A stretch of DNA of 62,975 bases, the filler included, from Conidiobolus incongruus B7586 (lineage: Eukaryota): NCBI GenBank assembly GCA_000697335.1. It is 6 parts of 6 records of this genome, joined end to end, with 100 filler letters (N's around TTAATTAATTAA, not from the genome) between each part and the next. Parts side by side here need not be neighbours in the genome. Positions count along the whole stretch, not along the records: positions 1 to 12,476 come from JNEM01006208.1; positions 12,577 to 21,038 come from JNEM01006211.1; positions 21,139 to 38,228 come from JNEM01006214.1; positions 38,329 to 49,990 come from JNEM01006215.1; 2 more parts are not named here. One strand, 5' to 3'. Shown here one piece after another: positions 802 through 49,394 of this stretch. Both the position numbers and the translations under genes were made by a program. The notes below the pieces were generated by a model. The model did not search any database, was not told the origin of the DNA, and was given only the letters and a program-made list of their open reading frames with translations. Every line of letters begins with the position of its first letter. Position 1 is the stretch's first letter.

Positions 802-809
802 TCCCATAA
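802..809 (+). promoter_or_regulatory. Recurrent upstream element TCCCATAA (first of 8 occurrences noticed)
   Basis: The same 8-mer lies upstream of ATGs in gene-sense orientation at 802, 25242(-), 26749, 28003(-), 40971(-), 41745 and 49113(-). One antisense copy is at 49190. Confidence 0.65.
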
Positions 810-966
810 TCTCTTTCTAACGATTCAACTTTTTAAATATACCAAATCTCGCAAATCCGATTTTTTATCTATCATTCACCAATTTATTAATTAATCAACC
901 AAACAATATAACTTACTTAATTTAACATATACAATATAATAAATTAGCAAATCACAGATAATAATA

Positions 967-3900
967 ATGAACTCTGATTTCATAAATAATTACGATTTAT
1001 GGATACAGCAGCTATCCATATCGACACCTGAAAGTTTAAATCATTTAAATCAGGTTCAAGATAGTCCTGAAGCTTGGAACTTGGCTTTTAACTTATTAGA
1101 ACATCCAGTGAGTTTGATTATTTTTCTATTTTTTTCATAGATATTTATTATTATTTCTGATTTTTAGAATTTAACTTGTAAATTTTATGGTGCTCATACA
1201 CTATTTCACAAAGTTTCTAGAAATTGGTAAATATAAAATTCTTAATACAATTTGATATATTTTTAACATTTATAATTTTAGGAATCAATTGGCAGAAGAT
1301 CAAACTAGAGAATTAGGGAATCAAATTATTCAACTTATTCAAAATTTACAAAACTTAAAATTACAACAGCAATCTTCTGATCAACTATTTTCCCCTATCA
1401 TTAGAAAATTATTACAAACAGTAATATATAACATATTATAAATATCTAATTGATTTTTACTAATATTATTCTTATAGATAGTTTGGTATCAATTTTATAC
1501 ATTTAACAAATTTGAAAATAATGATTTCATTCATCAAACTCTCAATTATTTTCAATACGATCCAAACGATCCTAATCGATCTTTATCCAGTCAATTGATC
1601 CAATTGGATTACTTGAAATTGATTCCTGAAGAACATCAGAGTGCTCCCAGCAGCTTAAATAGCAAGAGGTATATCCATGCTATTAATTCAAAATATTATT
1701 CATTAATCTGAATATTGAATAGTGTTGGAATTACTGACTATCTTCATAAATCAGTGGATTTAGTTTTGTCAATATTGCAACCCCATTTAATTTCAGAATC
1801 TATGGATAGTTCAAGTGATATGCTATTTCAAAAATGCTTATCTACACTTCAGAGTTGGACTAATTTTGGTTTACCTATTGAGTAAGGTTCACAAATGCAT
1901 TAAATTATCATCAAAAGTTAATTGTTGATTTTAGTTCAATACCCAATATTGTCCGTACCCTTATTCAGCAATTAAATCATAAAGAGAGAATCTTCCCAAT
2001 TGGCAAAACTTTGCAAGAAATATTGTCCCATCCCAACTCTTTTAAAGTTCAATCTACACTATTTAGCATCCTTTTACCTACTTTATGCCACCCTTCTTTA
2101 CTTGGTTTCATTGCAGGTAACTTGAAAACGATTTTAATAGGACGACTTTAATTAAGTATATTCTACTTAGAATTACAACAAACTGATCCCGATCGTGATT
2201 CAGTATTACCATTATGCCAACTATATGTAGATTTTTGCGAGACATTTTCAGAAATGATCATGGAGAAAATTATCTATCAAAACGATCAGCAAGTGTACCA
2301 AATCCTCGAAGCATTACTCAATTTTACCAATTATCCAGGTTTATGCCCATCTGAGCAAACTATTACTGAAGAATGTCTACTTGTGTGGACCACTTTGCAA
2401 GATTCTTATCAATCTCTTGATGATGATAGCTATCAGAGGGAAGGTCAAGCTGCCAACAAGGATGGTGCTCTCAATTACTTCAGACGTCTTTTAGATGTCT
2501 TACTCACTAAAATTAAATATCCTGAACAGGAGGAATTATCAGATTGGACAGCTAACGATCATCATATTTTCCGAGTGTTCAGAAGAGATGTTGGTGACTT
2601 GTTCCAGAACACTTACTATTTAATGAACACAGAAATGACACAGTACTATTTCAGCCAAGCCAATCAGATGATTAATCATTTGGTTCATCAGAATGCGTCA
2701 CAGGATTCCTGGCAGCCCTTAGAAAGTATTTTGTATTTACTACTCAAGATTTCAGAGCCTATGAATGGAAACACACCATTGTTACCCGAAGTTACTGAAT
2801 TTTTTACTCCCCAAATTTTAGACTTGTTACTTGAAGGGCCATTCAGCTCACTTTATCTTAAGCAAACTATTTTCCAAATCATTGGGGAATACGCTAGTTA
2901 CATCAAAGCTGATCAACAACTTCTCATTTACTGTATTAGCAAATCCCTTTCTGCACTTGCTAATGCTGAATTAGCTGCTACTGCAACCTCCGCATTTGGA
3001 AAATTATGTGATATTGCTCGAGACGATATGATAAATTCCATCCACGACTTGATCAATACCTATCTATCTATTTCTCATAATATTGAACCTGAATTACTGG
3101 ATAAAATCCTGAAGGGATTATTCAATATACTTTACAAGCTTCACAGTATCGACGCGAATAAGTTCCAAGTTGAAATGGATCGTGTTGTAGGTAATTTATT
3201 GGATATGTTGGAGCAAATTATTGTTCAAGGCAAAATTGGCGACTTTTCCAATCTATCCATCAATTCCCCATCAGCTGACGCCAACCCTAAAGATCTTTGG
3301 ATCGAGCAGTTAGTTCAAAGAATTCACAATTTAACAGCTTGCTGCAACGGTTTGAAACCTTCCAATGAATTTGAGGTTTCTGATTTGGCTGTTGACACCT
3401 TACAGCTTCCACAATCGATCATGTCTCCTTTATGTCAGCGGTTATATATGGCACTCATTGAATGTTTGAACTTGGCTGGAGGTCAAGAAGTGATGGTTGA
3501 AGCTATCAGTCGTCTAGTTGCTGCTGGATTAGACACTGATGGTATTGCAGTCCCCTTCGTTTTCCCACTCAATTCATTACTTGAAATGCTCGTCAATAAC
3601 TATTTAGCTCATCCAAACATCAACGCCTATCTTTGTTGGTTTAACAGAGTCGTCAACATCTATGGATCTTCTTCCAATATGAGTCTCAAGTCTCAGCTCT
3701 TTTTCAACAACAACCTTACTCAAGACCAACCCCCTGCTCACTACGATGACGGACTTTTGGGCCAAGCATTGCAAAAGGTGCTTCCAGCCTTCTTTGGTAT
3801 TGTCACTGATTTGGAATCAATGGAAGTGGACCTCGACTTATCTCTCAGCATGGTCAATCTCTTATCCAGATTCACTAGATGCGATCTCAAATCCATTCTT

Positions 3901-6605: not shown

Positions 6606-7299
6606 TTTGGATTAAATTTGTATTATTTAAACGGAATTAAAGATTGAATAAACAGATATTAAATGGAATAAAAGAAATCAATTCAATAAATAAAATAATA
6701 GTCAATTTTTATTCAGCTGATTGATATTGGGGTTTATGGTACACTACTCAATTAATTAGTGTCCATATTCTATTAACATTACATTTAATGTGTATTTACG
6801 TCATTTCAAATTTAGTGTTTGGTGCATATATTAAATAAAAAAATTATATTGTTCAAATATGTCAAATATTCAAAATATTTCATTAAATAATGAATTGTTT
6901 TTGGTATAAATTATCTTTACAATAACTTCGTTTATTAATCCTTCATATACACTATCAATAATAAAATTTTCCATATCTTATTCACAACTGCTTATTATTA
7001 AATTTGAAAATTTTAATTGAATGAATAACTAATTAATTTATTTTCGAAAAAAATAGAATGATGCTGAATAAAAATAATTTAAATGATAAATATTTTATAG
7101 TCGTAATATATAATAAACTCTGAACCTTTTATTTATAAAATATAGACCAATTAATTCAAATCAAAATGAAAAGTTTGAAAATAGTGGTATAGTTGAATAA
7201 TACTTTAAAAAGAGGATGAATTATTAAATAAATTATTGAAATAATTATTATATTATAAAAATAAAACTTGATTAAAGAATAGTTGGAATAAATTTTCTT

Positions 7300-7371
7300 G
7301 AGTTGTTGGAGCAATGGTAGCGCGTCTGCCTCCAGAGCGGAAGGTTAGGGCTCTAAGTCACCCACGCGTCA
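7300..7371 (+). pseudogene. tRNA-Trp(CCA) pseudogene
   Basis: A-box-like TGGAGCAATGGTAGCGCG, anticodon arm TCTGC-CTCCAGA-GCGGA, 3' acceptor strand ACGCGTC-A, then T6. The 5' acceptor strand (GAGTTGT) mispairs and the T-loop lacks GTTCRA. Confidence 0.75.
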
Positions 7372-7499
7372 TTTTTTATTTTTCCAGTTTCCATATAAAA
7401 TTTTTTATTCTTATTAAATAACTCGTTAATTTATTGTCTATATTATTTTTATTTATTTATTTAATCGTTATTTATTTGTTTTAAAATTTCAATTATTTT

Positions 7500-8735
7500 C
7501 CAATTAATTCAAATCAAGATTTGAAGACTTTGAGTACTAATGATTTCCTCACGTATTTTAATCAAACAGAAATGGAACAATTTGGCCTAGGTTGCAAATA
7601 TTTAAATTTTAAATACGTTCCTTTAAATTAAAATCGTTTTATTTACACAAATATCTTTAGGCTAATAATACCCATCATAACTTTGTGCTTCTTTCAGCAT
7701 TGGAACTTATTGATGGCGATGAGTATAAGATTTGTAAAAGTTATTGGTTCGTAGTATTTATTTGGAGCCTTATATTGTATATAACTCTGAACTTGATATT
7801 TTAGTACCCTTATCTCAGCTGGCATTCTTGTCATTATATTCTACCAATTTTTCATTAGAGATATTGAACTAAATCTCCAGTCAATCTCGTTTACTTCAAT
7901 CATTTCAATAAATATCAGTGAATTTTATATTTTCTGCCAACAGACCCAAGTCACAGTACCAATTACAATTTCCACATCAATTAAATCGAATATGAATATA
8001 TCGTTGTGATTGGATAAACTCTGATTTACGTGGAATTGAAAGTTTCACAGTATATCGTCCTTTCCATACTAGAAGCATCCAAAGTGAATTTACCGAATCT
8101 GAACTTTTATGTGTTATGATACCTATACAGTCGCTGAAGTCATTATCAACAATTTCTTATACAGCGTTCCTAAGTCGGTTCACTTTAAGCTGAAGTGGCG
8201 TAGTCTCGGAGACACTACTTTTATTCAAGACAGTTGCATTAATTCACGTATTGAAATTTGAGTAAGTATAGCATCAGTTCGAATTTTTAGAAAGTTATGG
8301 ACTAAGAACTTTGGAAAATGTTCAATCTCTCAAGGCAAAATACATGAATACTTCAAAATTGTCTCTGACTCAAGATATTCACATGCATTTTCCAAATCTT
8401 ATTCAACTCCATATTGAATATGTACAATCTGGTCACATTACAGTTGTCAGCATGCTAACGAAACCATAATCAACTCATCTCACCATTCAGGCAGTATCCT
8501 CTTGCTCTACTAAATTTTAGCCCACAGATTTCTTTTCACCACATCTGCAATTTCTAGTATTAAAATTTTTCATATATTATATGTGGGGTCAAGTTTGTTG
8601 AAAGACAGTCATCAACTTTGAAAGATTTTAATACACTAAAAGAATATGAATAAATTGGACATATGATTCAAACATATCTTGATCGATATGATAGTTGAAT
8701 TTGTGCAAAATTTGGAATCAGTAAATTATTATTAG
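7500..8735 (+). pseudogene. Degraded F-box/LRR-type gene
   Basis: Coding-like GC island with stop- and frameshift-broken fragments: F-box-like DFLTYFNQTEMEQFGLGCKYL and LRR-like SQLAFLSLYSTNFSLEIL, FPNLIQLHIEY, SPHLQFLVLKF. Boundaries are approximate. Confidence 0.5.
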
Positions 8736-9720: not shown

Positions 9721-10355
9721 AGGTTTTTATAGCAAATTATTATAACTAATAAACTATAAATCCCTTTATATAATTTTTTATTATAACATGAATTAAAATA
9801 TTAGGTTAAGTTATAATAATTATTTTCATAAATTTTAATAAATATTTTATTTATAAGAAAATATTAATTATTATAATAAATTATAATTTTATATATTATA
9901 CTTATTTGATTTTTAAGGGAAAATGATTTAATAATAAATTTTATATTGTTTTTTAAATAATACTGTTAATTAATTAATGATTTTGATATAATTTAAAAAT
10001 ATTTATTATTTTATATGATAATTATAAAATATATAAAATTATAAAGAAATTATTAATTAAAAATAATTAAAAAAACTACCATGTTTAATATATTTATTAA
10101 ATTATAACATATATAATTATAATTGTTTTAAATGATTAAAAAAATATACTAACAAGAAAAATATTCTTATAAATAAAATAAATTAGCTTGTAAAATATCA
10201 TATTTTAGTCTTTAATAAAAATGGTATTTTTTAAGTATTAGAAACTTTTTAAAAATATTATAAAACAGTTATTAGCGATAGAGTATTGATTTTATAACTT
10301 ATATATTAAAATCTTTATTTATTTTCAATCTCAAAAAATTCTCACTAATTAATTT
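9721..10355 (+). repeat. Unclassified AT-rich interspersed repeat (family 2)
   Basis: Colinear with 21139-21800 over ~600 bp (e.g. aggtttttatagcaaat vs aagtttttacagtaaat; gtctttaataaaaatgg vs atctttaataaaaagaa). May extend further left. Confidence 0.7.
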
Positions 10356-10580
10356 TAAAAGTAATAATTGGTAACTTTTCAGATATTTTTTGATATAGAT
10401 AGTATTGAAATTGGTAATATTAGAGTGTTTTAAATAGACCTTTTACTAATAAATATAATTCTAGTTTAACTTATCATCAGTAATTTTGACAAATATCAGA
10501 AGTATTGAATAAGTGTTTTTTATATTAATATTATGATATATTTTGAATTGTATTTTAATTTTAATAATTAACTTAATGAT

Positions 10581-12476: not shown

Positions 12477-12576
12477 NNNNNNNNNNNNNNNNNNNNNNNN
12501 NNNNNNNNNNNNNNNNNNNNTTAATTAATTAANNNNNNNNNNNNNNNNNNNNNNNNNNNNNNNNNNNNNNNNNNNN
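12477..12576. other. Artificial contig spacer (N44 + TTAATTAATTAA + N44)
   Basis: The same 100-bp spacer, with a six-frame stop 12-mer, recurs at 21039-21138, 38229-38328, 49991-50090 and 58512-58611. Confidence 0.98.
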
Positions 12577-21038: not shown

Positions 21039-21138
21039 NNNNNNNNNNNNNNNNNNNNNNNNNNNNNNNNNNNNNNNNNNNNTTAATTAATTAANNNNNN
21101 NNNNNNNNNNNNNNNNNNNNNNNNNNNNNNNNNNNNNN

Positions 21139-21803
21139 AAGTTTTTACAGTAAATATTTAAAATTAATAAATCTTCAATTCTTTTATATAATCTTTTACT
21201 TAAAAATAAAATAAAATATTAAGTTAAATTATCTTTTTTATAAATTTTAATAAATAAATATTTTAAATATAAGTAAATATTAATTGTTATAATAAATTAT
21301 AATAGTATATAGTTTTTTTATTTAATACTTTAAAGAAAATTAATTAATAATAAGTTATATATTACCTTTTTAAATAAAACAATTTTTAAATAATATTTTT
21401 AATATAAATTAAAAACACATTATTTTACATAATAATTATAAATATATTAAATTAAAACTATAAAAGATTTTTTAAATAAAAAAAATAAAAGGAGTTACTA
21501 TATCTAATATATTCACTTAATTATAACCTATATGATTATAATTGTTTTAAACAATTAAAAAACAGCTTACAAGAAAAAAAATTCCTGTAAACAAATTAAA
21601 TTAATTTATAAAATATCAAATTTTAATCTTTAATAAAAAGAATTATTTTTAAATATTAAAAGCTTACTAAAAATATAAAAAAGAGTTATTAATAATATAA
21701 CAAGCTATTAATTTTATATTATTTATTAATTTTTATATATTATTTATTAATTTATTTGTTTAATTTCAATCTTAAAATTGTGCCATTATTTAATTTCTAC
21801 ACT
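21139..21803 (+). repeat. Unclassified AT-rich interspersed repeat (family 2)
   Basis: Aligns with 9721-10355. Its last ~247 bp are the reverse complement of 37982-38228. Terminus aattgtgccattatttaatttctacacta. Confidence 0.85.
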
Positions 21804-21906
21804 AATATTAATTAACTCCTGGATAATAAAATATCTTGAATAAATGAATTCAATTCCAAAATTGAGAATTTGAGAAAATTTATAAAAAATTTCATTTCCA
21901 AAATAA

Positions 21907-25139: not shown

Positions 25140-26114
25140 TTTTTTAAAGATTTGTTAGAATTTTTTTTTAATTTTTTTATATAATAATAAATTAAAATGA
25201 ATTTAATATTTAAATTAATTTATAAAATTTGATAATTTTAATTATGGGATAAAATTATTTTAAATTTAATTATTATAATTTAAAAATTTGATCTAATTAA
25301 AAATTGATTATTATAATAATTTTATAAATAGAAATTAAATCAATTATTTAATATACAAATTTTATCAATTTTGATATATTTATAATGTCTTAATATTATT
25401 AGATTTAATGATATTAATATTGAAAATGATAGTCAAGTTGAACAATGTACTTAGCCGTTGACATAATTTTCTTAAAAGATTAATAATGGTAAAGATCAAT
25501 ATATTCATATTATTTGAAATTTCAATTCAAAATATAATTCAAGTGATATTATAAAGAATATTAGTTGTTCATTTTGTAATATAAAATTTAAACTAATCAA
25601 TTCTTTTTCAAAATATTACATAATTAAATTCATAATTATTTTTATCATTTTCAAAACACTTGTGCTATAATTATATATGTAGTCACAACCTTCATAAATA
25701 AAATTTAACAATAAATTATTCACAAAGTATCAAACGTGATATTTATTTCAAAAATCATTGTATCTAAAATGATATATATATAAGTATAAAATCGAAATAA
25801 TTAAACTAAATTGATTAAAGTTAAACCAATATTAAAAATAAATTATATCCCATTTTCAATCTCTATTAAATCATTAATATTAAATTTTTATTAAAAAAAT
25901 TAAATTTCTGTAAGAAATTTATGGAATTTTCGAAACAAGCATATGACTTACACAATAAATAAAAATAAATGATCAAAAAGTTAATAAATTAGTAAAAATT
26001 ACTAATTATTGATGTTAAATGGATATTGGTTGGTACAGTTCTTGAATAAAATCATATTCTTTGATATAGTTTAGGATGAATCCTTGAGAAAATCAAAGAG
26101 TATTGATATTGCTG

Positions 26115-26198
26115 TGATCATATGATTGATCATTAAATTGGGAGTGATCAAGCGTTAGATATTGGGAGTTCGGAGTATAAAAAGAATAAAGAGTCAGT
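26115..26198 (+). promoter_or_regulatory. TATA promoter with clustered TGATCA palindromes
   Basis: TGATCA at 26115, 26127 and 26145; ATTGGGAGT twice; TATAAAA at 26176, 77 bp upstream of ATG 26253. Confidence 0.5.
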
Positions 26199-26252
26199 CA
26201 TTAATATTCTTTATATACAATTAATATAATATAATTTAATAACAGATCTAAA

Positions 26253-26540: not shown

Positions 26541-26842
26541 TCTATTTATTTAATAAATTACTTATCAATTGATTGATTCAATACAATACTCAATATAAGT
26601 TAATATTTATATTTATTGAAGTAGATTTTTAATAATAAGTCTAATCATATTAAAACATAATATGATTTTATGAATTTTTATCAATTATATTCAGTTAATT
26701 TTAACCTAATTGATTTACATTTTCAAAATAAATTAATTTTATTCAATCTCCCATAAATTAAATAACTCAAATTAATATTTTTAATTTCAAAATCAAGTCT
26801 CACACCTCAAAATCTTAATAACTATATTAAAATTGAATAAAA

Positions 26843-27079
26843 ATGCCATCAATGCCCAATGACAGTGATAATGACAAAATCGGCTTATATATTCTATTAA
26901 TCATGCTAGTCATACTCGTTTTTATTCTGGTATTGTGGTGCTGCTTGAGCTCATGTCTTGGTACTTATTTCCTAAGGTGGTTAGGGTGGGAGAATTGCTG
27001 CAAAAATCCATACAGAAGGAAGAATTATCACTCGGAAATTAATGAAGAGACTGAGGAGGACTACGAACTGTTAGAATGA
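26843..27079 (+). CDS. Small single-pass membrane protein with juxtamembrane Cys cluster
   Basis: 78 aa; TM IGLYILLIMLVILVFILVLW followed by CCLSSC...NCC and an acidic tail; coding-like GC. Confidence 0.65.
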   Translation: MPSMPNDSDNDKIGLYILLIMLVILVFILVLWCCLSSCLGTYFLRWLGWENCCKNPYRRKNYHSEINEETEEDYELLE

Positions 27080-27102
27080 TTTACTAGTATGCCAGAATTC
27101 CA

Positions 27103-27918: not shown

Positions 27919-28036
27919 TATTTTTAAATTAACAATTATTTCATTAAAGTGAATTAGAAATAATTCGTGTCAAAATTTAAAAGAATTGAGAAAGAATCAA
28001 TTTTATGGGATAGTCAATTAAATAAAAAAAATCTGA

Positions 28037-28118: not shown

Positions 28119-28921
28119 ATACTTATGGAAATTATATACAATATGTATTTTTGACTGAAAATGTTTTTGCATCAATAAGACTTCTTGATTCATTGATTTC
28201 GTTATTAATTCTAATATATTTTTTGCATTTCTTCTTATCAATTTCAAATTTATTTGCTTCTTATCCTTTTATTTTTCTGATACTTTATAATTCTTTCAAC
28301 TTTCATTCGTTCATAATTTTTGCTTTATATAAATATGTTATATATTACATACATTTTTAAATTCAAAATCATATTAAATATAATTGTTCTATTTTTTCAA
28401 TTTTATTTGATTTTTAATATTATCATTATCAATATAGTAAAATAACTATCTATTACCATTTCACAAATAATTATTGAAATAATTTCACAATATCCAATTT
28501 TAATTGAAATTATGTGACTGCTTATTTATGTTATAATTTTAACAATTTTAATATTAAAATTATATTTTTAAATTTTTTATAAAAGAAATATCTAGGATAT
28601 AGTATATAATTATTAATATCAACCAAGTATAATGAGGTTTATAATAACTTTCTTTAATTTTTATAAATTACGCAATTCAATAACAAGTTACATATTGAAT
28701 TTAATGATTGGATATTGAAAGGTTTCAATTCAATCAATCTTCAATTTCAATACTAAAATAATTTAAAACAATTTATTTTATACCATAATTTTTTGATATT
28801 TTTAATTATGTGTAAATCAATTCCTATTCAAAAATAACCCTTTAATCTATTTTCTTTTAACCATCACCACCTTCCCAATAATTACCATATAATTTGGTAT
28901 TAGTATTAATCCTTGTATAAT

Positions 28922-30755: not shown

Positions 30756-31891
30756 TTAAATATTCCTAAAAGGATTTTCGACGAATTCGAGATTAGGAGG
30801 TGAAGAGGTAATGCCATTCCAAAACTTAAACTTATATTCATCATAGAGTTCTCTTAACCCTTGACAATATTTTTCATGTAATTGAATTATATCTTCCTCA
30901 GTTGGATTTAAGTTTTTTTCAATTTGAATAGGTTTACCAACTAATAAATATTAATAAATGTATTAAAAATGGAGTTAATAATATTATTATTACCAACAAT
31001 GTTAATAGGTACATTTTTGGGGAATAGACCCTTAGTTCCTGGGTAAATACCTCTGCCAGAAATCATTGGAATAAAAAATCCGATTTGTTTGTATAGTTTG
31101 GCCCTCAGTTTGACGTGCCAAGCTTCGAAATCCACTGGAGATTGGTCATAGACTTCATTCTCTCCAAATGCGTAAATTGGTACAAGATCAGCACTAAAAA
31201 TTTTATGAAAAACAAATTAAAAATATTTGATAATATTAAATTACCCTGATTGAAGTGCAATTTTAACAAATCCAAATCGATTTTTAATTATTAATTTTGC
31301 AGTGTTTGGTATTGCAAAAACCATTTCAGCACCACCGCCAATATTGATGGCTACACTTTTACCAGGACCCATTCCCAAAGTCTTCAATATGGATTCCTTA
31401 CTCACAGTCTGAAATCCGAATAAAAGACACAGTTCCCTAAGTAATGGAAAATATGTAAAGAACCTATGTCCCTTAATATTGACATCAATCCCTGGGAACA
31501 TTTCATCCAATCCACAAGCATTAGAATTCAGTCCAATAGCCATACCCCAAGGTGTTACACCGTGAGGATGATAGCCAAAGATATAGTTCTTTGAAGGATC
31601 CAGATCGCTAACTTTATGTAGTTTCATATTGAAATATTCGGCGCCGATTTTATATATCGAACTATTGCGATATTGATTGGATTTTGGACTACCGTATTTG
31701 GACCTAGGATCAAAGTAGATATATATGCAGTAGATTAGGACTGTATATCTATATCTCGAATAAATAGCTAATAGCATTATGAAAGTGGCAACAGTTGAGC
31801 CCAACATAGACCAAATCAACCAAATGTGCCTTAATTGTAATTTTGAATCTTTAATAGATAATTTAGAATTATTATTTTTGTTTATTTTCAT
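30756..31891 (-). CDS. DGAT2/MOGAT-family acyltransferase, copy 1 (3 exons)
   Basis: YIFGYHPHG, GGGAE, RFGFVKIALQSG / ADLVPIYAFGENE...PINIV / VGKPI...LEFVENPFRNI*. Confidence 0.92.
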
Positions 31892-31925
31892 TCTTTAGAT
31901 TATCTAATTAATTATGGTTTAATCT

Positions 31926-31927
<2 letters not shown>

Positions 31928-31954
<27 letters not shown>
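31928..31954. repeat. (AT)n microsatellite in DGAT copy 1 promoter
   Basis: About 13 AT units. Confidence 0.85.
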
Positions 31955-31959
<5 letters not shown>

Positions 31960-32732
31960 TGATTTTTGATTTGTATTTATACTTTAATAAATATGGGGTA
32001 ATTAATATTAGGAAATTATAGGAGATTACCACCCCATTCAAAGTACTAAACTGTCAATCAATAACACCAAAACTTTTTATTAATAATTTTAATTAATTTG
32101 AAATTATATATATATTCAATATATTTTTATACTGATAAAAATATCAAATCCAAGCAAACAATTTTTAAATAATAATATAATAACTGTATATATTAAAATA
32201 TTTATCAATATTTTTATAATTTTTTTAATAAAATTCATTTAAATTATTTTAATAAATAAATATTATATTTTTATTAATTATGATTCAATTTAAATTATAA
32301 TAATAATATATTTAAATAAAAAAACTTAAATAATATTATAATTGTTATAAATTAGTCAAGTGTTTATTGATAATTACATTTGTTTTTTAAATGATATATG
32401 AGTAAGTTGAAAGTGTATTTATTAATACTCGCTTTTCTATCATATTTATTATTATGGTTTACTAGATTTAATATTGAAACCTTGTTATTCTTCAAACTCG
32501 AAAATTCATTAATATTCCATTTAATTACATTCAAGATCATTTTATTAATTAATTATAGACATTTAGCATCTATGATTTTATTTATTATTAAATATTAATA
32601 TATATCATTGTTTATATTTTCAGATATTATTGGTTAATGTCTTATGAAAATTAATCAATTTTATAGTACAAATTTAAAAACTGATTTTCAGATTATAATT
32701 GAGAAGCCTCAATTCTATTAAATTTTTAATTT

Positions 32733-33863
32733 TTAAATGCTTTTTAATGGATTTTCCACCAGTTCAAGATTTGGAGGAGGAGTACCATAGTACCAAAACT
32801 TTGATTTATATTCATTAAATAAAGATTTGAGAGCTTCACAATATTGTTCATGTAATTCTATTACTTCTTCATCTGTGGGATTAGAGTTTCTCTTAACTCG
32901 AATAGGTTTACCAACTACATTTTATATTAGTTTAATGTATCAATAGTGAGCAATATAACTTAATTACCAACTATATTAATAGGAACATTTTTAGGGAATA
33001 TACCCTGAGTTCCTGGTAAAATACCTCGACCACTGATGAAAGGTATAAAAAATCCTGACATTTGATAAAATTTGGCTCTTAATTTAGCATGCCAATCATT
33101 CAAATTGACTGGATCTTGGTCAAATGCATCATTCTCACCAAATGAGTACACAGGCACAAGGTCAGCACTATTTAAAATATATTAATATATTCTCATTACA
33201 AATTAATATGGTCGATTACCCAGCCATTAATGCTATTTTAACAAATCCAAAGCGATTTTTAACGATTAATTTAGCAGTGCCCGGGACTGCAAAAACCATC
33301 TCTGCGCCACCTCCAATGTTGATGGCAACACTTTTTCCAGGTCCCTGACCAAGAGTTCTGAAAATTGACTTCTTGTTCACAGTTTGAGCTCCCATTAAAA
33401 AGCACAATTCTCTAACCAGTGGGAAACGAGAGTAGAAGTAATGCCCTTTAATATTTAGATCAATTCCAGGAAACAAATCATCAAATCCACATGCGTTAGA
33501 GTTAATACCCACTTGCATGCCCCAAGGTGTTGCACCATGAGGATGATAGCAAAATATATAGTTCCTACTCGGATCCAAATCACAGGTTTTATGTAATTTC
33601 ATATCAAAGTATTCTGCAATAGTTTTAAAAACTATACTGTTTCTATATTGGTTTGACGTTGGACTACCATACATCGATTTAGGATCAAAGTATATATAGA
33701 TAAAGTATAACAGTACAAAGTGCCAGTACCCCCAATAAACTAATGAAGCAAGAATAGCAGCACCCAAAACAGGAACCACAATTGAAATAATCAAAAAAAT
33801 ATGTTTAAAATGTAAAGTTGAATCTTTCAAAGGGACTGCTAAGTTATTATTTGTAATTTTCAT
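32733..33863 (-). CDS. DGAT2/MOGAT-family acyltransferase, copy 2 (3 exons)
   Basis: YIFCYHPHG, GGGAE, RFGFVKIALMAG / ADLVPVYSFGEND / VGKPI...VENPLKSI*. Same intron positions as copy 1. Confidence 0.92.
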
Positions 33864-36241
33864 TATATTTTTTTATAAAACTTTTTAATTTAAAAAAATA
33901 ATATAATAAAATATTTAATGATGTATTTATAATAAAATTTCAATCAGAATTTGAATCAATTGTGTAACTTTAATTAATAATATGATTTGTTAAGTTAATT
34001 TAATTTATTATAATAAGGGAAAACTTATTGTTGATCAATTTTTATTTTATCTGATATTTTGTCAAGTATAAACTTACTCAATTAAGTATAAATTAATTTT
34101 TTAATTAATAATATATTAAGTGGTTAATTTAATACTTTTTTTTATTTCATAATTATTTAATTGATAAAATGAAATTTTATAAATTTTAAATTAAATTAAA
34201 TTTTTAATATAAAAGTATAATTAAATATTCTAAAATAATATTCAATTTAAATAAATTAATATTCGCTTAAAATATGGACTAGTGTAATATTAATATTTAT
34301 AATTAAAATAATTATATAGTTTACATTTATTGAATAATTTTTTAGGTATCTAAAAATATCCATTATTATTCTCGCTGAATTCAACAAGTTTTTATCATTG
34401 ATATTTTTATTATACACTAGTTTTAATTGTTATTATAATTATAAAACCTATAATTTTTGCAAATAATTAATCTTAATTAAATTTTTTAAAATATAAATTA
34501 TTATTTAATTTTTATACTTGTTAAAAATTATTTTAATAATGGTAAAGTAAATATATTCATTTATATATTAATTCAATTATAATTTTTATAACATAAATAA
34601 AATATTAATCAAGTTACTTTAAATATTAAATTGAAATTATAAAAAAGGGGGGTTTAAATTTAATCAAATATTAATATTGGATCCATTCAAAATTCAAAGA
34701 ATCTGAGAAGGGTTATTGATATTATACACCCATATTGATCCATTATTATAAGTGGAAATCAATTGAAATAAAAATATAAATATAATTTTAAAAATACTGA
34801 TGCTTTGTATTATTTTGATAACCACAATATATACATGAAAATTTATGACATATTTTTTAAACATCATAATCATTAAAATATTAAGAGTGGCTAATAGTTT
34901 TTACAAATAATTTTTTCATTTTATAATATATAATATATAGTAATTATTAGTTTTTTTAATGAATAATATACTTTCTTTACTAGATAATTAATTTATGATA
35001 AATTTAATTAAAATTTTTCAAAAATTTTTAATATTAATTAATATAATTTTTTTTAAATTAAATAATTTGAAATAATATTAATATATTGAACTTAGGTATA
35101 TATTCTTTGGACCAATGCACATTTAGATAAAATATTTTAATACTAGGTACTAATATCACTCAATAATTAGTAAATGTATTAATACCAATCTCTGCAATGG
35201 GTATAGTGAGGTTAGTAGTAAATAAATGTTGATTAATTGCAACTTGGAATCCTTCAACAAGACATTTCAATTATCACATTTTACGACTAGTATAATAATT
35301 GGTTTTTAATCTAGCCAGGTTTGAATAAAATTTTCTGAACATTATTTATATTCTAATAAATTAGATTTAATGAAAAACTACTTGAATTCATTAATTTGAG
35401 ATATTGTGGCTCTACCAATTGCTAGTAGGACGCTATTAATATGGAAGGAAGCGGTTTCCTCGTGGATTATTTTTATAGTTTGAATTAAAGTGCTTTATTA
35501 GGGCTTGCTAAGGGTTTAGTAGACTTTACAAAAGACCAGATGTGATGATGAAAATGTATTCCAACAATGGTTCTTTTATAGACCATTCATTGTCGTGGGT
35601 AATGTAAAGTGTATTAGGTCTTCAGAAAAGTGAGACCTTAAAGTGGTGTGACGGGTATTCCGGGGTTATATCTTCATAAAGCAATAGATAATGAGAAGTT
35701 AGTTGGGTGAGTTATCATCTAGGTGACCAGAATATATTTTACTTGGCCAATTAGCTGCAAATAAATAGATTATAGTATATGAATATAATTATTTTTTTTC
35801 TAAATTAATTTAATATTAAAGGAGAAATAATTATACAAAAAATATATATGATTCATATGTATATTTTTGAAATTAAAAAGTTTACAATTTAAAATAAATT
35901 TTATAAAAATTTATCAATAATTTAAATATAAATTACTAATTATTATATTGTAATATTGAATTTGGTGAGTATATTAAAATCCATATTTTTTAATATATTA
36001 TATAAAATTAAATTATATATTTATATTCTATTATATTTTTTTCATTTATGTTAAATTTCTGATAAAAATTCTTAGAAATTAATGGCAAAAAAAGTTAAAT
36101 ATTCTCAATAAAAATGTATTTTAATAAGAACTTGAAATTAATAATAAAATGCTGATAAAATTTTGGATATAAGATATTAGCGTAAGATATTTAAGAATTT
36201 AATTAAAAGTAATTAATTTAATTATTTTTATAATTTAATGG

Positions 36242-37375
36242 TTATATGTATTTTAATGGATTTTCAACAAGTTCAAGTGAAGGAGGTGATGTAGTTTTAT
36301 CATACCAAAATTGGGATTTGTATTGATCATATAGAGATTTAAGTGATTCACAATATTGTTCATGTAATTCCATTACTTCTTCATCGGTAGGATTAGAGTT
36401 TCTCTTGACTGGAATCGGTTTACCAACTAAATTTGATATCAATTTAATATATCAATAATGAGCAATATAACTTAATTACCAACTACATTGATAGGTACGT
36501 TTTTGGGGAACATACCTTTTGTTCCTGGTAAAATACCTCGACCTGTAAAATTAGGGATGAAGAATCCAAATTTTTTATATATCCAAACCCTGAGTTTAAA
36601 ATGCCATTTGTTGAAATCTACGGGAGTCTGGTCATATGCTTCAGTTTCTCCAAATCCAAAGACAGGTACAAGATCAGATCTATAAAAATTCCATCAATAT
36701 CAATTATATAGGACATAAAATAAAGAATTACCCAGTTATTACAGCAATTTTAATGAATCCAAAGCGATTTTTAACAATCAATTTGGCTGTTCCCGAGACT
36801 GCATAAATCATTTCTGCACCACCTCCGATATTAATAGCAACACCCTTTCCAGGCCCTTGACGAAGAGTTCTCAAAATTGATTCTTTATTAACAGATTGAG
36901 CCCCAAACATTAAGAACAGCTCCCTTAAAAGAGGATAGCATATACTCAACCTATGTCCTTTAATATTTAGATCAATACCTGGGAACATGTCATCGAATCC
37001 ACAGACATTAGAATTCAATGCAGCGAACATTCCCCAAGGGACAATGCCGTGAGGATGATAGCAAAATATATAGTTCTTTCTGGAATCTAAATCAGCTGTC
37101 TTATGTAATTTCATATCAAAATACTCGGCAATAATTTTAAATATTTTATGATCCCTGTATTGATTGGACGTTGTACTACCAGACTTGGATCTAGGATCAA
37201 AATAAATATATATCAAATAGGCTAACAAAATATACCAATATCCCCAATAAATAAGTGAAATCATAATCAAATCAGCTATTATTGGGACAACTATGAAAAA
37301 AATTAACCAAATATGCTGAAATTGTAAATTTGAATCTTTAATAGATCGTTTCAAATTATTATTATTCATTGACAT
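36242..37375 (-). CDS. DGAT2/MOGAT-family acyltransferase, copy 3 (3 exons)
   Basis: YIFCYHPHG, GGGAE, RFGFIKIAVITG / SDLVPVFGFGETE / VGKPIPV...VENPLKYI*. Same intron positions as copies 1 and 2. Confidence 0.92.
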
Positions 37376-37981
37376 ATTAAAAAAATTTTTTATAATTTAA
37401 TTTTATTCAAATTATTTCATACTTTAAAAGCTATTTATACTTAATTTATTAATTAATTTAATACAATTTAAAATAAATTTTGATTTATGTAACTAAATAA
37501 AGCCTTTAAAATTAATTATACCTTTTATTATTTTATATAATTTTCTGTAATTCATATTAAGTTTGAAAGTTTAAGTAGAATATAGCGAATATATTGATTA
37601 ATACAGATGCTTAATCAATTATTTAATTAATTCATTTTTGAAATTAATCTATCTAAAAATAATAACTTTAGATTGAAGTGAATTCAGTTTAATCAAAGTT
37701 TCACAATATAATTTTTCAACTATCGAGAAAAAGCAGATTACAATAAATTAAATTTTTTATACAACACATACATACATACATATATATATAATTTCCTTTA
37801 TACTTTATATAACCAATTTACAAATTAAAATATTAAATTATTTATTTATTTTATTAAATATTTATTATATTATTTGCATAAATTATTAAATTTTATTAAT
37901 TAATTAAAAACTATTAAATAATAAATTATATGGAAAAATAATTAAATTTAAATTGATTAGTAATAAATTTATTTAATTATT

Positions 37982-38228
37982 AATGCAGAAATTAAGTAAT
38001 GGCACAATTTTGAAATTAAAATTAAACAAATAAATTAATAAATAATATATAAAAATTAATAAATAATATAAAATTAATAGCTTGTTATATTATTAATAAC
38101 TCTTTTTTATATTTTTAGTAAGCTTTTAATATTTAAAAATAATTCTTTTTATTAAAGATTAAAATTTGATATTTTATAAATTAATTTAATTTGTTTACAG
38201 GAATTTTTTTTCTTGTAAGCTGTTTTTT
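37982..38228 (-). repeat. Family 2 repeat, inverted relative to 21557-21803
   Basis: The reverse complement is identical to 21557-~21765, then differs by 6 transitions in the last ~40 bp. Confidence 0.9.
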
Positions 38229-38328
38229 NNNNNNNNNNNNNNNNNNNNNNNNNNNNNNNNNNNNNNNNNNNNTTAATTAATTAANNNNNNNNNNNNNNNN
38301 NNNNNNNNNNNNNNNNNNNNNNNNNNNN

Positions 38329-40801: not shown

Positions 40802-42015
40802 ATTGATATACTGAAATTAATAAATGTGTGTTTAGTAAAATGAATTTTTAATATATTAATTTAAACTTTTAATTAATTAGTAATTATTTAAGTTGAAATT
40901 TTGGTGAATAAGTTTTGAGATTGATGAATAATTGACTAATATTTTAATTCTCATTTAAATTATATAAACTTTATGGGATTCAACCTTCTCTAAAAATATA
41001 ATATTTTAAGGTTAACTAATTTTTGAGTTATACTTTTCGATTTGAATCAGTTATTCACATATATTTTAATAATATATTTTTAACTAAATAAAACTATTAA
41101 CTAAATTAATTTTCATATAATACATTTACAATAATATAAATATAATAGTGAATAAAAAATAAATTTTGAAATATTTAAAGGTATCAACATAATCAAAAAT
41201 TAAAAATCAAAATTATATGTTCCAAATTTTATATCTTACAATATAAAAGAATATTGTTATTGAAAATGTAAATCTATATCCATTTATGTTATAGTTTAAA
41301 ACACATATAAGATTGTAGATATAATTATGTTATTATTATATTTTAATTCTCATATAAGTGTAATAAACAACAATTGCGAAGATTAAAATTTAATGACTTA
41401 ATCAAGCTAAAAATTTTTTATTAATCTTAATTATAAATGATTATAAATCAAAGAATAAATTAGAAATAGAAATCTAGTTATATTATGACTATTTAATCCA
41501 ATAAAAGTAATAAACAATTAATATAAATATTTGAGCTAATCTTATATTATAAAGATTGGTCAAGATGGTTGGGTATAGCTTGTGAAACATTATGCTAAGC
41601 AGTAAATTTATTAAGAAATAATGATTTAGAAAGTTCTAGATTAGGAAAGTGGTAAGCAAATAATGCAAAAAATTAATTTAGTTTATTGAATAAGAAAATT
41701 ACAACTCATTCAAAAATATAATTTCATTCCCCCTATTCATATAATCCCATAATGAAATTGCAAATCTGGTTGATTTGTCATAAATTCATAACACAGAATC
41801 AATTAAACATAATTAAGCCATTCTATTATCTTTTTCCCGCAGTCCATACATCTTTTAAATAATTCATTGTAACTCTCCAATATATCTTCAAATAAATTAT
41901 ATTGATCAGGTGTTCCATATTTAATTTCACACAAGTTGATACCTATTGCCAAGCTTTTGTCAAGAGTATTTTTATCATCAAAATTCATTTAAGCTATTAG
42001 AGAAAATTATTTACT

Positions 42016-45838: not shown

Positions 45839-45910
45839 TTAAGAATCCGAGCATCAATCTTGGTGCCTCTGCGTGCAAAGCGAGCGCTCTACCATATGAG
45901 TTAATTTCCC
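45839..45910 (-). pseudogene. tRNA-Ala(TGC) pseudogene
   Basis: GGGAAATTAACTCATATGGTAGAGCGCTCGCTTTGCACGCAGAGGCACCAAGATTGATGCTCGGATTCTTAA: Ala-type D and anticodon arms, but stems and B box are broken. Confidence 0.75.
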
Positions 45911-46543: not shown

Positions 46544-49029
46544 TTAAGCCCACTAAAAATTTTAAATTAGCTAAAAATATATTGAAATAAATATAGAAAA
46601 AAATTACCAAATCTCTCAAATATCTTCCTTCCTGCATCAATTGGGTCAAAATTTGAGTTGCTTCAATCTTACTTCGATTCAATTCGGGAGGTCCTTGTAA
46701 GATATCCGTGAAAGCTTGGTGAACGTCCTTGGCCATATTCTTGGCATCGCTATTAAAATGTGGAATGAGTTGTGTGTAAATTAATTTTATATATTTAAAT
46801 TACCCGCAAATGTAAATATAGCCATTTTGATTCATAATGAAATCGTAGACTTCTTCCTTGTTTTGTAGAAGAACGTGTTGGACATATTTGATCTCTTGAT
46901 TGGGATTCAATCTACTGAAACAGCAGTCCAATCGGGTTAAAGTGCCATCTTCGACGTAAGTTTGAAGTTCTTTTTCAAAGAGGTAGTCCTTCTTGGGGTC
47001 TCTGGTACCGAAGATGAGCCACATTTTACCAAACGACTTCTTGAGCTCTTCGGAGATGGATGAGCTGAAGCCACCCATCTTCTTCTTAAGCCTGCGTTGG
47101 CATTGGCGATGCTGGAGGAAACCGATGAATGGAGCAACACCAGTACCAGGGCCAATCATGAGTACGGGCTTGTTAGTTTGAGTAGGTAGGTGGAAGTTTT
47201 GGGCGGTTTGTTTACGGAATAAGCAGAGGGGATGAGGGCTGGCCAAGGTGTTGGAAGTATTGGAAGCAACATATCCAGAAATTTGATCGAGCCAAGGTGT
47301 ACATAATCCGTGGCGAAGATATTGTGGATCAGTTTCGAGGTTGTATTGAATCACGTTGAAAGCTAATCTGAGTTGGCTAGGTGCGGCCAAAGGAGAGTTA
47401 GCAGCGGAGTAGTATCTTGGCTGTAATTGAGGTAAAGTATCTAACAAACGCTCAATAGGAGGTTGAGCAGTGTTGAAATATACCAAGATATCAAGAATGC
47501 TAGGATTCAGTGATTTAAGCTGGTTATAAAGATTTCCACCTATTAAAGTTATTAGTAAGATCTTTATATACGTACAGTGTATAATAGTTATAATTACCTT
47601 GCTTACTAACCATAGCTAATAAAATTTGTTTTTGGTTATTGTCACTAGTGAAATCAGCCAGCATTCTGAACCAAGCCTTCTTAGGGAATGAATTCAAATC
47701 CAAAAAGTTAGCAAATAATTGTTTCAAAGTGATGTTTTGAGGAAGGTTAGTTAGGTGATTGGGGAGGATTGTGTTGGGTTTGGCTTGAATCCTAATAATT
47801 TGGTCCCATTGATCGGGTGTAAGTTGAAGTCTGGTGAGGAGCCTTTCAACTAGTTCGTTGTCATTAGGGCAGCAGATACCATAAGCATCTCCTGGCATAA
47901 AGGGTTCGGTATCTTCTGGAAGCTCGATATTGACCAAAAGAGTACGCTTAACAGCATTTGAGCTAGTTAAGCTAGAAACTGAAGTAAGATATCCAATGAA
48001 AGAGTTGGCATGGGACTTGAGTTGGATATCTAGATCAGATAAAGGCTTATGAGATTCCGATTTTTGTTCCAATGCATAAGTCATTAATTCAGGGGGATTT
48101 TTAGGGAACCCTGAGATAGCAGTGAGCTTCTGAAGTTCAGTTAAATCCAATTTGATGGGTTGATCATAGTTTCTAGGTAAAGGGTGGTTGAGTGGTTCGT
48201 TAGGATCACTAATCACAGTATCTTGCAAATTTTCAGCAATAATATTTTCAACTACAGTGTTAACTGAAGTTTCTGTATTAGCATTATTATTGGCTTGTGT
48301 ATAGATGGTAGCTATTTAAATTAATTAAATATTTACTAAAATTATAATTAATATAATAATCTTACCAGGAATGGATCCAGAATTCCAAGATTTAACTACA
48401 GTGATAATATCTTCTAACCAAGCTTCAATAACGGTATCAGCACTAAATTTATCAAATCAGTACAGATCACTAATTTGGCTATTATATAAAACTTCATTAC
48501 CCTTCTTCATCGTCAGCAATTTGAAAACGGAATTTAGGTTGAGCACCTAACTTGATCAAATATTCATAAACATACTTAGGGAATCCTCCAAAATTGTCAT
48601 AGGAACTATCTCCCAAGCCTAAGGAAAATATGTAAGTTAAAATAACTCAATTTAAACAAAAAAAATAATATGTACCTAATAATGCGAAATGAATATGACT
48701 CAAAGGTTTATCATTAAGTTGGGCCAAGTCCCTCAACTTAGTCTTAAATTTCAAACTATCTTCGGGAGGGTCACCATCTCCAGTAGAAGAACAAATAATA
48801 ATTAAATTAGTTTCTTGTTTATTGGTTAAGTTCTAAAATTTAATAAGTCAAAATTTATATCATAATTATAATTTTTTGAATTTACCGGAATATATTCATC
48901 ACAACTGAATCTTTCAACTTGAATTTGCTCAGTTTCATCAGTATTAAGTTGTAGCAATTGGTTACTAAGTTGACCAATTAAACCTCTAGCAGTTCCTGTT
49001 TCAGATCCGTATACTAAATTGAATTTCAT
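46544..49029 (-). CDS. MTRR: Diflavin (FMN/FAD/NADPH) reductase, methionine synthase reductase-like (multi-exon)
   Basis: No N-terminal TM anchor. Motifs: YGSETGTA, CSSTGDGDPP, LGLGDSSY, LQPRYYSAANS, GLCTPWL, FHLP, MIGPGTGVAPFIGFLQHR, YIYICG/DAKNMAKDV, GRYLRDL/WA*. G-x-CT-x-WL, FHLP and KNMAKDV favour MTRR over CPR/NDOR1. Confidence 0.75.
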
Positions 49030-49394
49030 TATTAATTATAATTTATATTTATCTGTTATCAGATTATTTTTGAGAACTATATCTATTTATACTAATAATA
49101 TCAATATAATAATTATGGGATCTTAATATCTTTTTATCCAAATTTGGTTATTTGAAGGATCCACACTTCATAAAGATCACTATATTAATTCCCATAAAGA
49201 TTTAATTAGATCATATAAAGGATCTGATTATTAATAAAGAGTGACACTATTAAATCCTAAATAATCCTATATGATCTTATATAATCTGACAAAATCTTGT
49301 GTTTTATTTATTTTTTATTGGGTTTAACCTTTAAACTCGAATTAAGAAAATTTTGAATAATTAATCTGGAATTTAACTCCATTTAAAATATTAC

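What the first reader, a model, noticed from the sequence alone, without database searches (positions are those of the whole stretch)
802..49197. Oriented promoter element (A)TCCCATAA(W) upstream of most housekeeping genes
Seen: TCCCATAA lies on the sense strand about 85-270 bp upstream of the ATG of IPO13 (802), neurochondrin-like (25242-25249), the 78-aa TM gene (26749), MED4 (28003-28010), TBCA (40971-40978), IRE1 (41745) and MTRR (49113-49120), with one antisense copy at 49190. The variant TACCATAA sits in the same orientation upstream of VMA4 (6734-6741) and the PPPY gene (28781), but also occurs away from promoters (4948, 57349). A rough composition estimate gives well under one chance copy of the strict 8-mer in the AT-rich intergenic DNA. 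The TATA-led genes (secreted protein, three DGATs, 54506 orphan) lack the strict motif. Inference: a lineage-specific core-promoter or general-regulatory-factor site. The resemblance to ZNF143/Staf (TCCCAnAATG) or CSL (TGGGAA) cores is speculative. My scan was by eye and may have missed copies.
Basis: partly seen in the sequence, partly recalled or inferred. Interest (0 to 1): 0.7.

Follow-up and report, generated by a model that had tools for sequence, protein, structure and literature searches.

The report
Oriented promoter word in Conidiobolus fungus
In this Conidiobolus-like fungus a short DNA word, TCCCATAA (or TACCATAA), sits once, pointing towards the gene, 90-270 bases before 9 of the 14 genes whose starts are visible, mostly those without a TATA box, and it is likely the landing site of an unidentified protein that would start transcription of everyday genes.

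Summary
All 8 TCCCATAA copies lie where stated, none in coding DNA; 7 are single sense copies 91-271 bp before a start codon (7 of 14 visible starts). No 8-mer with 3 or more G/C reached 6 of 14 upstream regions in 2000 shuffles. Two more genes carry TACCATAA in the same place. All 5 motif-less genes have a TATA-like box at -63 to -77; only 2 of 9 motif genes have one at -100 to -40 (p 0.01-0.045). From about 40 bp after the motif to the start codon the DNA is C-rich and almost free of ATG (1 in 917 nt, 6.3 expected), so the motif likely lies just upstream of the transcription start. Best reading: a proximal-promoter element of TATA-less genes, like yeast proximal promoter motifs or Drosophila DRE/Motif 1. 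It fails the CSL and ZNF143 consensus tests; the closest word is human ZNF410's (10 of 12 bases), binder untested. No genome, RNA or orthologous promoter was obtainable, so all rests on one window.

The parts
802..809 (+). TCCCATAA, 165 bp before IPO13 ATG (967)
6734..6741 (-). variant TACCATAA, 136 bp before VMA4 ATG (6605); only 1-mismatch sense copy in that 300 bp
25242..25249 (-). TCCCATAA, 110 bp before neurochondrin-like ATG (25139)
26749..26756 (+). TCCCATAA, 94 bp before the 78-aa TM gene ATG (26843)
28003..28010 (-). TCCCATAA, 92 bp before MED4 ATG (27918), between tRNA-Leu and MED4
28781..28788 (+). variant TACCATAA, 141 bp before the PPPY (weak COX14-like) gene ATG (28922)
40971..40978 (-). 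TCCCATAA, 177 bp before TBCA ATG (40801); 121 bp if the candidate leader intron is spliced
40811..40866 (-). candidate 56-nt intron in the TBCA leader (GT...branch-like TTTACTAA...CAG; size as the 53-60-nt introns of IPO13 and IRE1); inferred, no RNA
41745..41752 (+). TCCCATAA, 271 bp before IRE1 ATG (42016); no sense ATG from +8 to the start codon
49113..49120 (-). TCCCATAA, 91 bp before MTRR ATG (49029)
49190..49197 (+). antisense copy in the MTRR upstream region; no ORF, Rfam RNA or C>G skew to its right; a dispersed AT-rich repeat begins at about 49381
26176..26183 (+). TATAAAAA at -77 of the motif-less secreted-protein gene (contrast class)
31974..31981 (-). TATAAATA at -90 of DGAT copy 1 (a (TA)n run at -63 to -45 also fits the TATA pattern)
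33924..33931 (-). TATAAATA at -68 of DGAT copy 2
37432..37439 (-). TATAAATA at -70 of DGAT copy 3
54440..54447 (+). TATAAAAG at -66 of the 54506 orphan gene

Best explanation
A single oriented word, (A)T(C/A)CCATAA(A/T), lies 91-271 bp before 9 of 14 visible start codons and is likely a DNA proximal-promoter element of TATA-less genes, probably some 30-45 bp upstream of the transcription start. Shown: placement, strand, one copy per gene, avoidance of genes with a TATA-like box, and a C-rich, ATG-poor stretch from about +40 to the start codon. Inferred: that this stretch is the 5' leader; that a sequence-specific factor binds the word in one orientation, keeps the promoter open and brings in TFIID/Pol II where TBP has no TATA box; that the targets are constitutive genes. 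The binder is unknown; a C2H2 zinc-finger protein is a guess from the likeness to ZNF410/ZNF143 words.
For: 7 of 8 strict copies fall in the sense-strand 300 bp upstream of ATGs, which are 7.8% of intergenic strand positions (binomial 1.4e-7); top-ranked of 2911 upstream 8-mers. Look-elsewhere: in 0 of 2000 dinucleotide shuffles did any 8-mer with 3 or more G/C reach 6 of 14 regions (maximum 5, once); in 2000 sets of non-promoter intergenic windows the maximum was 3. Divergent pairs TBCA/IRE1 and MED4/PPPY each carry their own copy turned to their own gene. TATAWAWR at -100 to -40: 5 of 5 motif-less vs 2 of 9 motif genes (Fisher 0.010; 0.045 with DGATs merged); 7 of 9 motif genes have none in 300 bp, against 64% of control windows having one. 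C:G is 163:193 before and 105:34 after +40 in the 7 strict genes; motif-anchored fit beats ATG-anchored (18.6 vs 12.3). ATG: 1 in 917 nt from +40 to the start (shuffle mean 6.3, P 0.01), 3 in 315 nt at +5 to +40 (3.5 expected), 23 in 1350 nt upstream (21.8 expected). Flanks are unrelated and no copy lies in the window's dispersed repeats. Same logic is published for yeast proximal promoter motifs (PMC3170328, abstract and section 7) and Drosophila DRE/Motif 1 (PMC12549938, passages).
Against: One window, 14 genes, and the same genes that suggested the motif; no genome, no orthologous promoter, no TSS data. Locking of the skew to the motif is only borderline: 340 of 5040 permutations (7 strict genes), 58 of 3000 (9 genes), 155 of 3000 (without IRE1), and the fit has a second peak at 0 to +15. 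The ATG contrast between +5..+40 and +40..start is Fisher 0.054; distance to the nearest upstream ATG does not correlate significantly with motif distance (rho 0.61, p 0.15); MED4 has an ATG at -26. Part of the ATG depletion can come from my choosing the first in-frame ATG as start. MTRR and neurochondrin-like have both motif and TATA-like strings; DGAT1's -63 box lies in a (TA)n run. One copy is antisense with no transcript found. The variant word is not enriched window-wide.
Confidence: 0.68

Rival explanations
1. The word is an initiator that overlaps the transcription start (or the first bases of the mRNA, read as RNA), not an upstream binding site.
For: All 8 strict copies fit the human Inr consensus BBCABW (consensus from the search listing of PMC5287114). 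Strict orientation. In 5 of 9 genes C exceeds G already at +9 to +40, and the change-point fit has a secondary peak at 0 to +15.
Against: 3 of 9 genes (IRE1 +7, TBCA +24, PPPY +27) have an ATG right after the motif, at the background rate, while the stretch beyond +40 is depleted. The two TACCATAA variants do not fit BBCABW. Eight invariant bases is more than known initiators need (own knowledge); BBCABW occurs 4.5 times per kb of strand in gene-poor DNA here.
Confidence: 0.13
2. The word is the site of a condition-specific transcription factor (a regulon such as growth or ER/secretory function) rather than a general promoter element; the housekeeping split is accidental.
For: The class split is post hoc and weak once DGAT paralogs are merged (7 of 9 vs 0 of 3, Fisher 0.045). 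TM78 and PPPY are not shown to be housekeeping genes.
Against: The targets share no pathway (import, V-ATPase, Mediator, tubulin folding, UPR, B12 enzyme repair). One copy per gene, near-perfect strand bias and 50-64% of genes are more than a typical regulon would give (inference).
Confidence: 0.12
3. The word is read by a fungal homolog of the ZNF410/ZNF143 zinc-finger group, so the likeness to CATCCCATAATA reflects shared ancestry.
For: 5 of 8 strict copies match the ZNF410 12-mer at 10 of 12 positions (motif from 10.1101/2020.08.31.274324 and PMC9976917, passages); all 8 have CCCR at SBS positions 3-6 (PMC3082894 passage). ZNF143 works at TATA-less promoters (PMC3082894 passage).
Against: No copy has the leading C of the ZNF410 word or C at SBS position 12; the variant changes one of the three Cs. 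ZNF410 is described as conserved among vertebrates and needs clustered sites (PMC9976917, 10.1101/2024.02.24.581901, passages). A 9-10 base match to one of many known motifs is easily chance (not quantified: no motif library here).
Confidence: 0.05
4. Chance in AT-rich DNA, a repeat remnant, or a 3'-end signal of the upstream gene.
For: Window-wide count is only marginal (5 of 100 shuffles). The motif was picked by eye. The TM78 copy is also 209 bp downstream of the secreted-protein gene (the 1 hit in 18 downstream regions).
Against: Look-elsewhere controls 0 of 2000; no shared flanks; no copy inside the dispersed repeats; copies in divergent pairs have no same-strand gene ending upstream.
Confidence: 0.02

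Closest known systems
Yeast proximal promoter motifs of TATA-less promoters (Erb and van Nimwegen 2011, PMC3170328; abstract and section 7 read)
   Same: Short motif close to the start, under-represented in TATA promoters, proposed to be where pre-initiation complexes are recruited.
   Different: Different words (GATA, FKH, PBF/PAC, RPN4, NDT80, ROX1), each in a subset of genes; here one word covers 9 of 9 non-TATA-class starts in the window; no TSS, binder or nucleosome data here.
Drosophila housekeeping promoter motifs DRE (DREF) and Ohler Motif 1 (M1BP) (PMC12549938, passages)
   Same: Sequence-specific sites marking housekeeping, TATA-less promoters.
   Different: Unrelated sequence; those motifs are variably placed with dispersed initiation, whereas this word may keep a narrower distance to the leader (borderline); binder unknown.
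Human ZNF410 site CATCCCATAATA (10.1101/2020.08.31.274324, PMC9976917, 10.1101/2024.02.24.581901; passages)
   Same: Core ATCCCATAA(T): 10 of 12 bases in 5 of 8 copies; the AA pair that ZNF410 needs is invariant.
   Different: No exact 12-mer, leading C never present, single copies at many promoters instead of clusters at one gene (CHD4); ZNF410 described for vertebrates.
ZNF143/Staf binding site (PMC3082894, passages)
   Same: CCCR core; TATA-less promoters.
   Different: C at position 12 absent in 8 of 8 strict copies; no 18-bp extension, no ACTACA companion seen in the aligned flanks.
Microsporidian CCC-like promoter signal (PMC2803860, passages)
   Same: A CCC run after an A/T-rich tract upstream of most genes of a fungal-related lineage; some listed examples read TTTATCCC.
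   Different: It lies immediately before the ATG (leaders under 7 nt) and is only a triplet; here the word is 8-9 bases and 91-271 bp from the ATG, and the variant has only CC.

Membership tests
Proximal/housekeeping promoter motif of TATA-less genes (yeast PPM, DRE/Motif 1 kind) | Enriched close upstream of gene starts | tested here: met
   7 of 8 strict copies in sense 300-bp upstream regions; 0 of 2000 look-elsewhere shuffles; one window only
Proximal/housekeeping promoter motif of TATA-less genes (yeast PPM, DRE/Motif 1 kind) | Under-represented in TATA promoters | tested here: met
   TATAWAWR at -100..-40 in 5 of 5 motif-less vs 2 of 9 motif genes, Fisher 0.010 (0.045 with DGATs merged); small numbers
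Proximal/housekeeping promoter motif of TATA-less genes (yeast PPM, DRE/Motif 1 kind) | Preferred position relative to the TSS | tested here: inconclusive
   Proxies only: skew change at +40 (permutation 0.02-0.07), ATG depletion beyond +40
Proximal/housekeeping promoter motif of TATA-less genes (yeast PPM, DRE/Motif 1 kind) | Genome-wide enrichment at constitutive genes | not testable with these tools
   No genome held
Proximal/housekeeping promoter motif of TATA-less genes (yeast PPM, DRE/Motif 1 kind) | Bound by a sequence-specific factor in a nucleosome-depleted region | not testable with these tools
   Needs pull-down, footprinting, MNase/ATAC
CSL site | GTG(G/A)GAA consensus (PMC1973085) | tested here: not met
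   0 of 10 sites; only the antisense copy has TGGGAA
CSL site | CSL protein in the organism | not testable with these tools
   CSL genes are reported in Rhizopus (PMC1973085 passages); this organism's proteome is not held
ZNF143/Staf binding site | CCCR at positions 3-6 | tested here: met
   8 of 8 strict, 0 of 2 variant sites
ZNF143/Staf binding site | Highly conserved C at position 12 (PMC3082894) | tested here: not met
   0 of 8 strict sites; 1 of 2 variant sites
ZNF410 site | 12-mer CATCCCATAATA | tested here: inconclusive
   0 of 8 exact; 10 of 12 in 5, 9 of 12 in 1, 8 of 12 in 2; leading C in none
ZNF410 site | Homotypic clusters of same-orientation sites | tested here: not met
   One sense copy per promoter
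ZNF410 site | ZNF410-type five-finger protein in the organism | not testable with these tools
Initiator (BBCABW) | Consensus match | tested here: inconclusive
   8 of 8 strict, 0 of 2 variant; the consensus is common, 4.5 per kb of strand
Initiator (BBCABW) | TSS at the central A | not testable with these tools
   No 5'-end data; indirect evidence against: ATG at +7 to +27 in 3 of 9 genes
Microsporidian CCC-like signal | Immediately upstream of the start codon | tested here: not met
   -91 to -271 against leaders under 7 nt (PMC2803860)
MADS CArG box (consensus recalled) | CC(A/T)6GG | tested here: not met
   0 of 10 sites

The most novel reading that the evidence does not exclude
Entomophthoralean fungi run a two-class promoter system in which this one oriented word replaces the TATA box at a fixed distance (about -30 to -45) for nearly all constitutive genes, and it is read by a zinc-finger factor of the ZNF410/ZNF143 lineage, i.e. 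an ancient animal-fungal promoter factor lost in yeasts and moulds and narrowed to a single target in vertebrate ZNF410.
Probability: 0.07. Interest if true: 0.85.

Novelty: new member of a known kind. Interest (0 to 1): 0.45.

Why it matters
Promoter architecture of Zoopagomycota is undescribed in the papers I could search. A single, strand-specific word at about half to two thirds of genes would be the first core/proximal promoter rule for Entomophthorales: it would help place starts and 5' leaders in very AT-rich genomes, give a handle for building expression vectors in oil-producing and insect-pathogenic Conidiobolus, and add an early-diverging fungal data point on how TATA-less promoters recruit Pol II. 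It is directly testable with an existing public C. coronatus assembly. It is not a new kind of system unless the binder or a fixed TATA-replacing geometry is shown.

Tried and rejected
No whole genome is held. Sequencing runs: no RNA holder listed; this is no evidence on expression. Laying contigs on 26700-28030: three runs with the same species label gave nothing, and the run that holds the window covered the two promoters thinly or not at all, so haplotype conservation of the motif could not be read. Close relatives' DNA: MED4 in metagenome contigs, 0 of 200 candidate stretches confirmed; MED4 pattern in GTDB and viral contigs, 0 and 0; dynein in viral and GTDB contigs, 0 of 12 and 0 of 41. 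Homologs P0122 and P0123 each list a JGI contig of 26,935 bp, probably one syntenic contig of a C. coronatus-like organism, but its DNA was not obtained. MTRR alignment gave 80 loci, mostly distant and many probably bacterial; 12 TCCCATAA in 629,732 bp; the only one of the four best loci that reaches the MTRR promoter (L003, 51% GC) lacks the word: n=1, too distant to mean much. Rfam: only tRNA-Leu and a chance hit; no RNA right of the antisense copy. MITE or hairpin origin of the 49113/49190 pair: only an 18-nt, 78% inverted match among 66 AT-rich pairs; rejected. The 61-aa antisense ORF in the IRE1 leader has no Pfam or Atlas hit. A second element (TCAAT-like) after the motif is not enriched over upstream (6 vs 6). 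ApT ratios were descriptive only and showed nothing usable on 6mA; Lax et al. report high 6mA in Zoopagomycota but my term searches found no Conidiobolus methylome there (PMC11258239 passages and supplements). Earlier scan notes: none on this genome or motif.


Full report
Organism and setting. The window is an intron-bearing, very AT-rich eukaryotic sequence (intergenic GC 17%) made of contigs joined by five 100-base spacers. MED4 is 79% identical to that of Conidiobolus coronatus NRRL 28638, its only hit among 580 candidates, so the organism is a Conidiobolus-like entomophthoralean fungus distinct from that strain. No whole genome is held, so all statistics come from this window. Fourteen protein genes have a visible ATG; five more start in gaps or outside; three degenerate coding-like stretches (about 7650-8600, 21950-22720, 35150-35760, by eye) were not counted as genes.

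Observation. TCCCATAA occurs 8 times at the stated places. None is genic; 7 are sense copies at -91, -92, -94, -110, -165, -177 and -271 from an ATG, one per gene, and one is antisense in the MTRR upstream region. The count alone is marginal (8 vs 3.9; 5 of 100 whole-window shuffles) and intergenic expectation is 0.4-1.4 by model. Placement is the signal: sense upstream regions are 7.8% of intergenic strand positions, giving 1.4e-7 for 7 of 8, the best rank of 2911 upstream 8-mers. To allow for picking the word by eye I asked how often any 8-mer with 3 or more G/C is shared: never by 6 or more of 14 regions in 2000 dinucleotide shuffles (5 once), and never by more than 3 in 2000 sets of non-promoter intergenic windows. 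Aligned flanks show A before the word in 6 of 8 and A/T after it in 8 of 8, and nothing else. TACCATAA is not enriched window-wide (6 vs 4.7), but it is the only one-mismatch sense copy upstream of VMA4 and of the PPPY gene, where about 0.15 or fewer is expected per 300 bp (0.50 per kb of strand); I count it as a probable variant.

Two promoter classes. All 5 genes without the word have TATAWAWR at -63 to -77 (DGAT1's in a TA run, with another at -90); 2 of 9 genes with it have one in -100..-40 (Fisher 0.010; 0.045 when the three DGAT paralogs count once). Seven of the 9 have no TATAWAWR in 300 bp, though 64% of control windows do. The housekeeping label is weaker: Pfam supports IPO13, VMA4, neurochondrin, MED4, TBCA and IRE1 and homolog names support MTRR, but TM78 is a lineage-restricted protein (one homolog, 74%) and the PPPY gene has only a sub-threshold COX14 hit.

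Where transcription probably starts. No RNA run was listed, so I used two proxies. First, strand skew: with coding DNA and the tRNA masked, C:G is 163:193 before and 105:34 after a point 40 bp downstream of the motif in the 7 strict genes; anchoring on the motif fits better than on the ATG (18.6 vs 12.3), but permuting distances among genes reaches the observed fit in 340 of 5040 (7 genes), 58 of 3000 (9 genes) and 155 of 3000 (without IRE1), and the unmasked profile has a second peak at 0 to +15. The TATA genes show no such skew after their box (17 C, 29 G). Second, upstream ATGs: 1 in 917 nt from +40 to the start (shuffle mean 6.3, P 0.01; 10.2 at the intergenic rate), 3 in 315 nt at +5..+40 (3.5 expected), 23 in 1350 nt upstream (21.8 expected); the contrast of the two downstream zones is Fisher 0.054. 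IRE1 has no sense ATG over the last 260 bp, which fits a long leader. TBCA has a candidate 56-nt leader intron that would bring its distance to 121. Together these suggest, without proving, that the word lies some 30-45 bp upstream of the start, about where a TATA box lies in Drosophila regulated promoters (PMC12549938 passage).

Mechanism. Most likely (0.68) a sequence-specific factor binds the word in one orientation just upstream of the start of TATA-less genes, holds the promoter open and recruits the basal machinery. Shown: placement, orientation, single copy, TATA avoidance, leader-like DNA downstream. Inferred: the TSS, the binding, the chromatin effect, constitutive expression. Rivals: an initiator or 5' RNA element (0.13; fits BBCABW but 3 of 9 genes have an ATG within 27 bp of the word); a condition-specific regulon (0.12; targets share no pathway); a ZNF410/ZNF143 homolog as binder (0.05; compatible with the best reading, listed apart because it is a claim of ancestry); chance, repeat or 3'-end signal (0.02; no copy in the dispersed repeats found, and divergent gene pairs each have their own copy).

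Comparison with what is known. It works like yeast proximal promoter motifs, which avoid TATA promoters (PMC3170328, abstract and section 7), and like Drosophila DRE and Motif 1 (PMC12549938, passages). It is not a CSL site (GTG(G/A)GAA, PMC1973085 passages; 0 of 10), not a full ZNF143 site (C at position 12, PMC3082894 passage; 0 of 8) and not a CArG box (consensus recalled; 0 of 10). The nearest word is ZNF410's CATCCCATAATA (passages of 10.1101/2020.08.31.274324; PMC9976917; 10.1101/2024.02.24.581901): 10 of 12 bases in 5 of 8 copies, but ZNF410 is described for vertebrates and acts through clusters. The microsporidian CCC signal (PMC2803860, passages) abuts the ATG and is shorter. From recall only, CCATAA(A) also resembles posterior-Hox/CDX homeodomain sites and the YY1 core; untested.

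In print? Seven searches bear on it. The word itself is in 1,096 papers; the 30 listed are unrelated by title, apart from one on ZNF410, and I did not see the rest. The reverse word with 'motif enriched' and 'fungal' gave 0. Conidiobolus or early-diverging-fungus promoter searches listed no promoter-motif study of this group, and a search on ZNF143/ZNF410 in fungi listed nothing on point. The library lacks most subscription journals, and bioRxiv supplements were not seen, so this is not proof of absence. The scan's own index returned no note on this genome or word.

Conservation could not be tested. Five scans for close relatives' DNA were empty; the 80 MTRR-related loci were distant, and the single fungal-like promoter reached lacks the word. 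A probably syntenic 26,935-bp contig of a C. coronatus-like organism exists but was not obtained. The run that holds the window shows a second, diverged haplotype in the coding parts, but did not cover the promoters well enough.

Verdict. A real, statistically solid local pattern and a sound, ordinary kind of explanation: a new member of the known class of TATA-less proximal promoter motifs, in a lineage with no such description in my searches. Interest 0.45; it would rise with genome-wide confirmation, a fixed distance to mapped starts, or an identified binder.

Noticed in passing
window 26947-27912: Contigs of the run that holds the window include a second version of TM78/MED4 differing at 21 of 211, 12 of 167 and 13 of 190 bases at depth similar to the identical version: two haplotypes or genome copies about 7-10% apart (hybrid, heterozygous or mixed culture). 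The run may be the window's own source.
   Followed up: partly
window 58614-59162: SNAPC3 domain (Pfam E 5e-49): a SNAPc subunit in an early-diverging fungus; from recall, budding and fission yeasts lack SNAPc, so snRNA promoters here may be animal-like.
   Followed up: no
window 50091-51291 and 57033-58229: Two copies of a 1.2-kb AT-rich decayed repeat, 80% alike, with 178 transitions against 58 transversions and no C-G swaps; looks like deamination-driven decay (RIP- or methylation-like), unexpected if confirmed in this lineage.
   Followed up: partly
window 14-370, 9723-10368, 21141-21815, 37969-38228, 49381-49601: A second dispersed AT-rich repeat family, several copies next to assembly gaps.
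   Followed up: partly
window about 7299-7371 (+) and about 45840-45910 (-): Two degenerate tRNA-like sequences (Trp-like and Ala-like by eye) not called by ARAGORN or Rfam; probably pseudogenes.
   Followed up: no
window 41803-41988 (-): 61-aa ATG-started ORF antisense to the probable long IRE1 leader, starting 28 bp from the IRE1 ATG; no Pfam or Atlas hit.
   Followed up: partly
window 30756-37369 (-): Three tandem DGAT2-family genes 71-74% alike in DNA, each with a TATA-like box and no strict motif.
   Followed up: partly
window 28123-28130 (-): TTCCATAA, a one-mismatch form of the word, lies directly upstream of the tRNA-Leu gene; the form is not enriched (5 in the window).
   Followed up: no
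window 12477-12576, 21039-21138, 38229-38328, 49991-50090, 58512-58611: Artificial 100-base spacers with a six-frame stop word join the contigs; dynein heavy chain lacks both ends, so distances across them are not real.
   Followed up: yes
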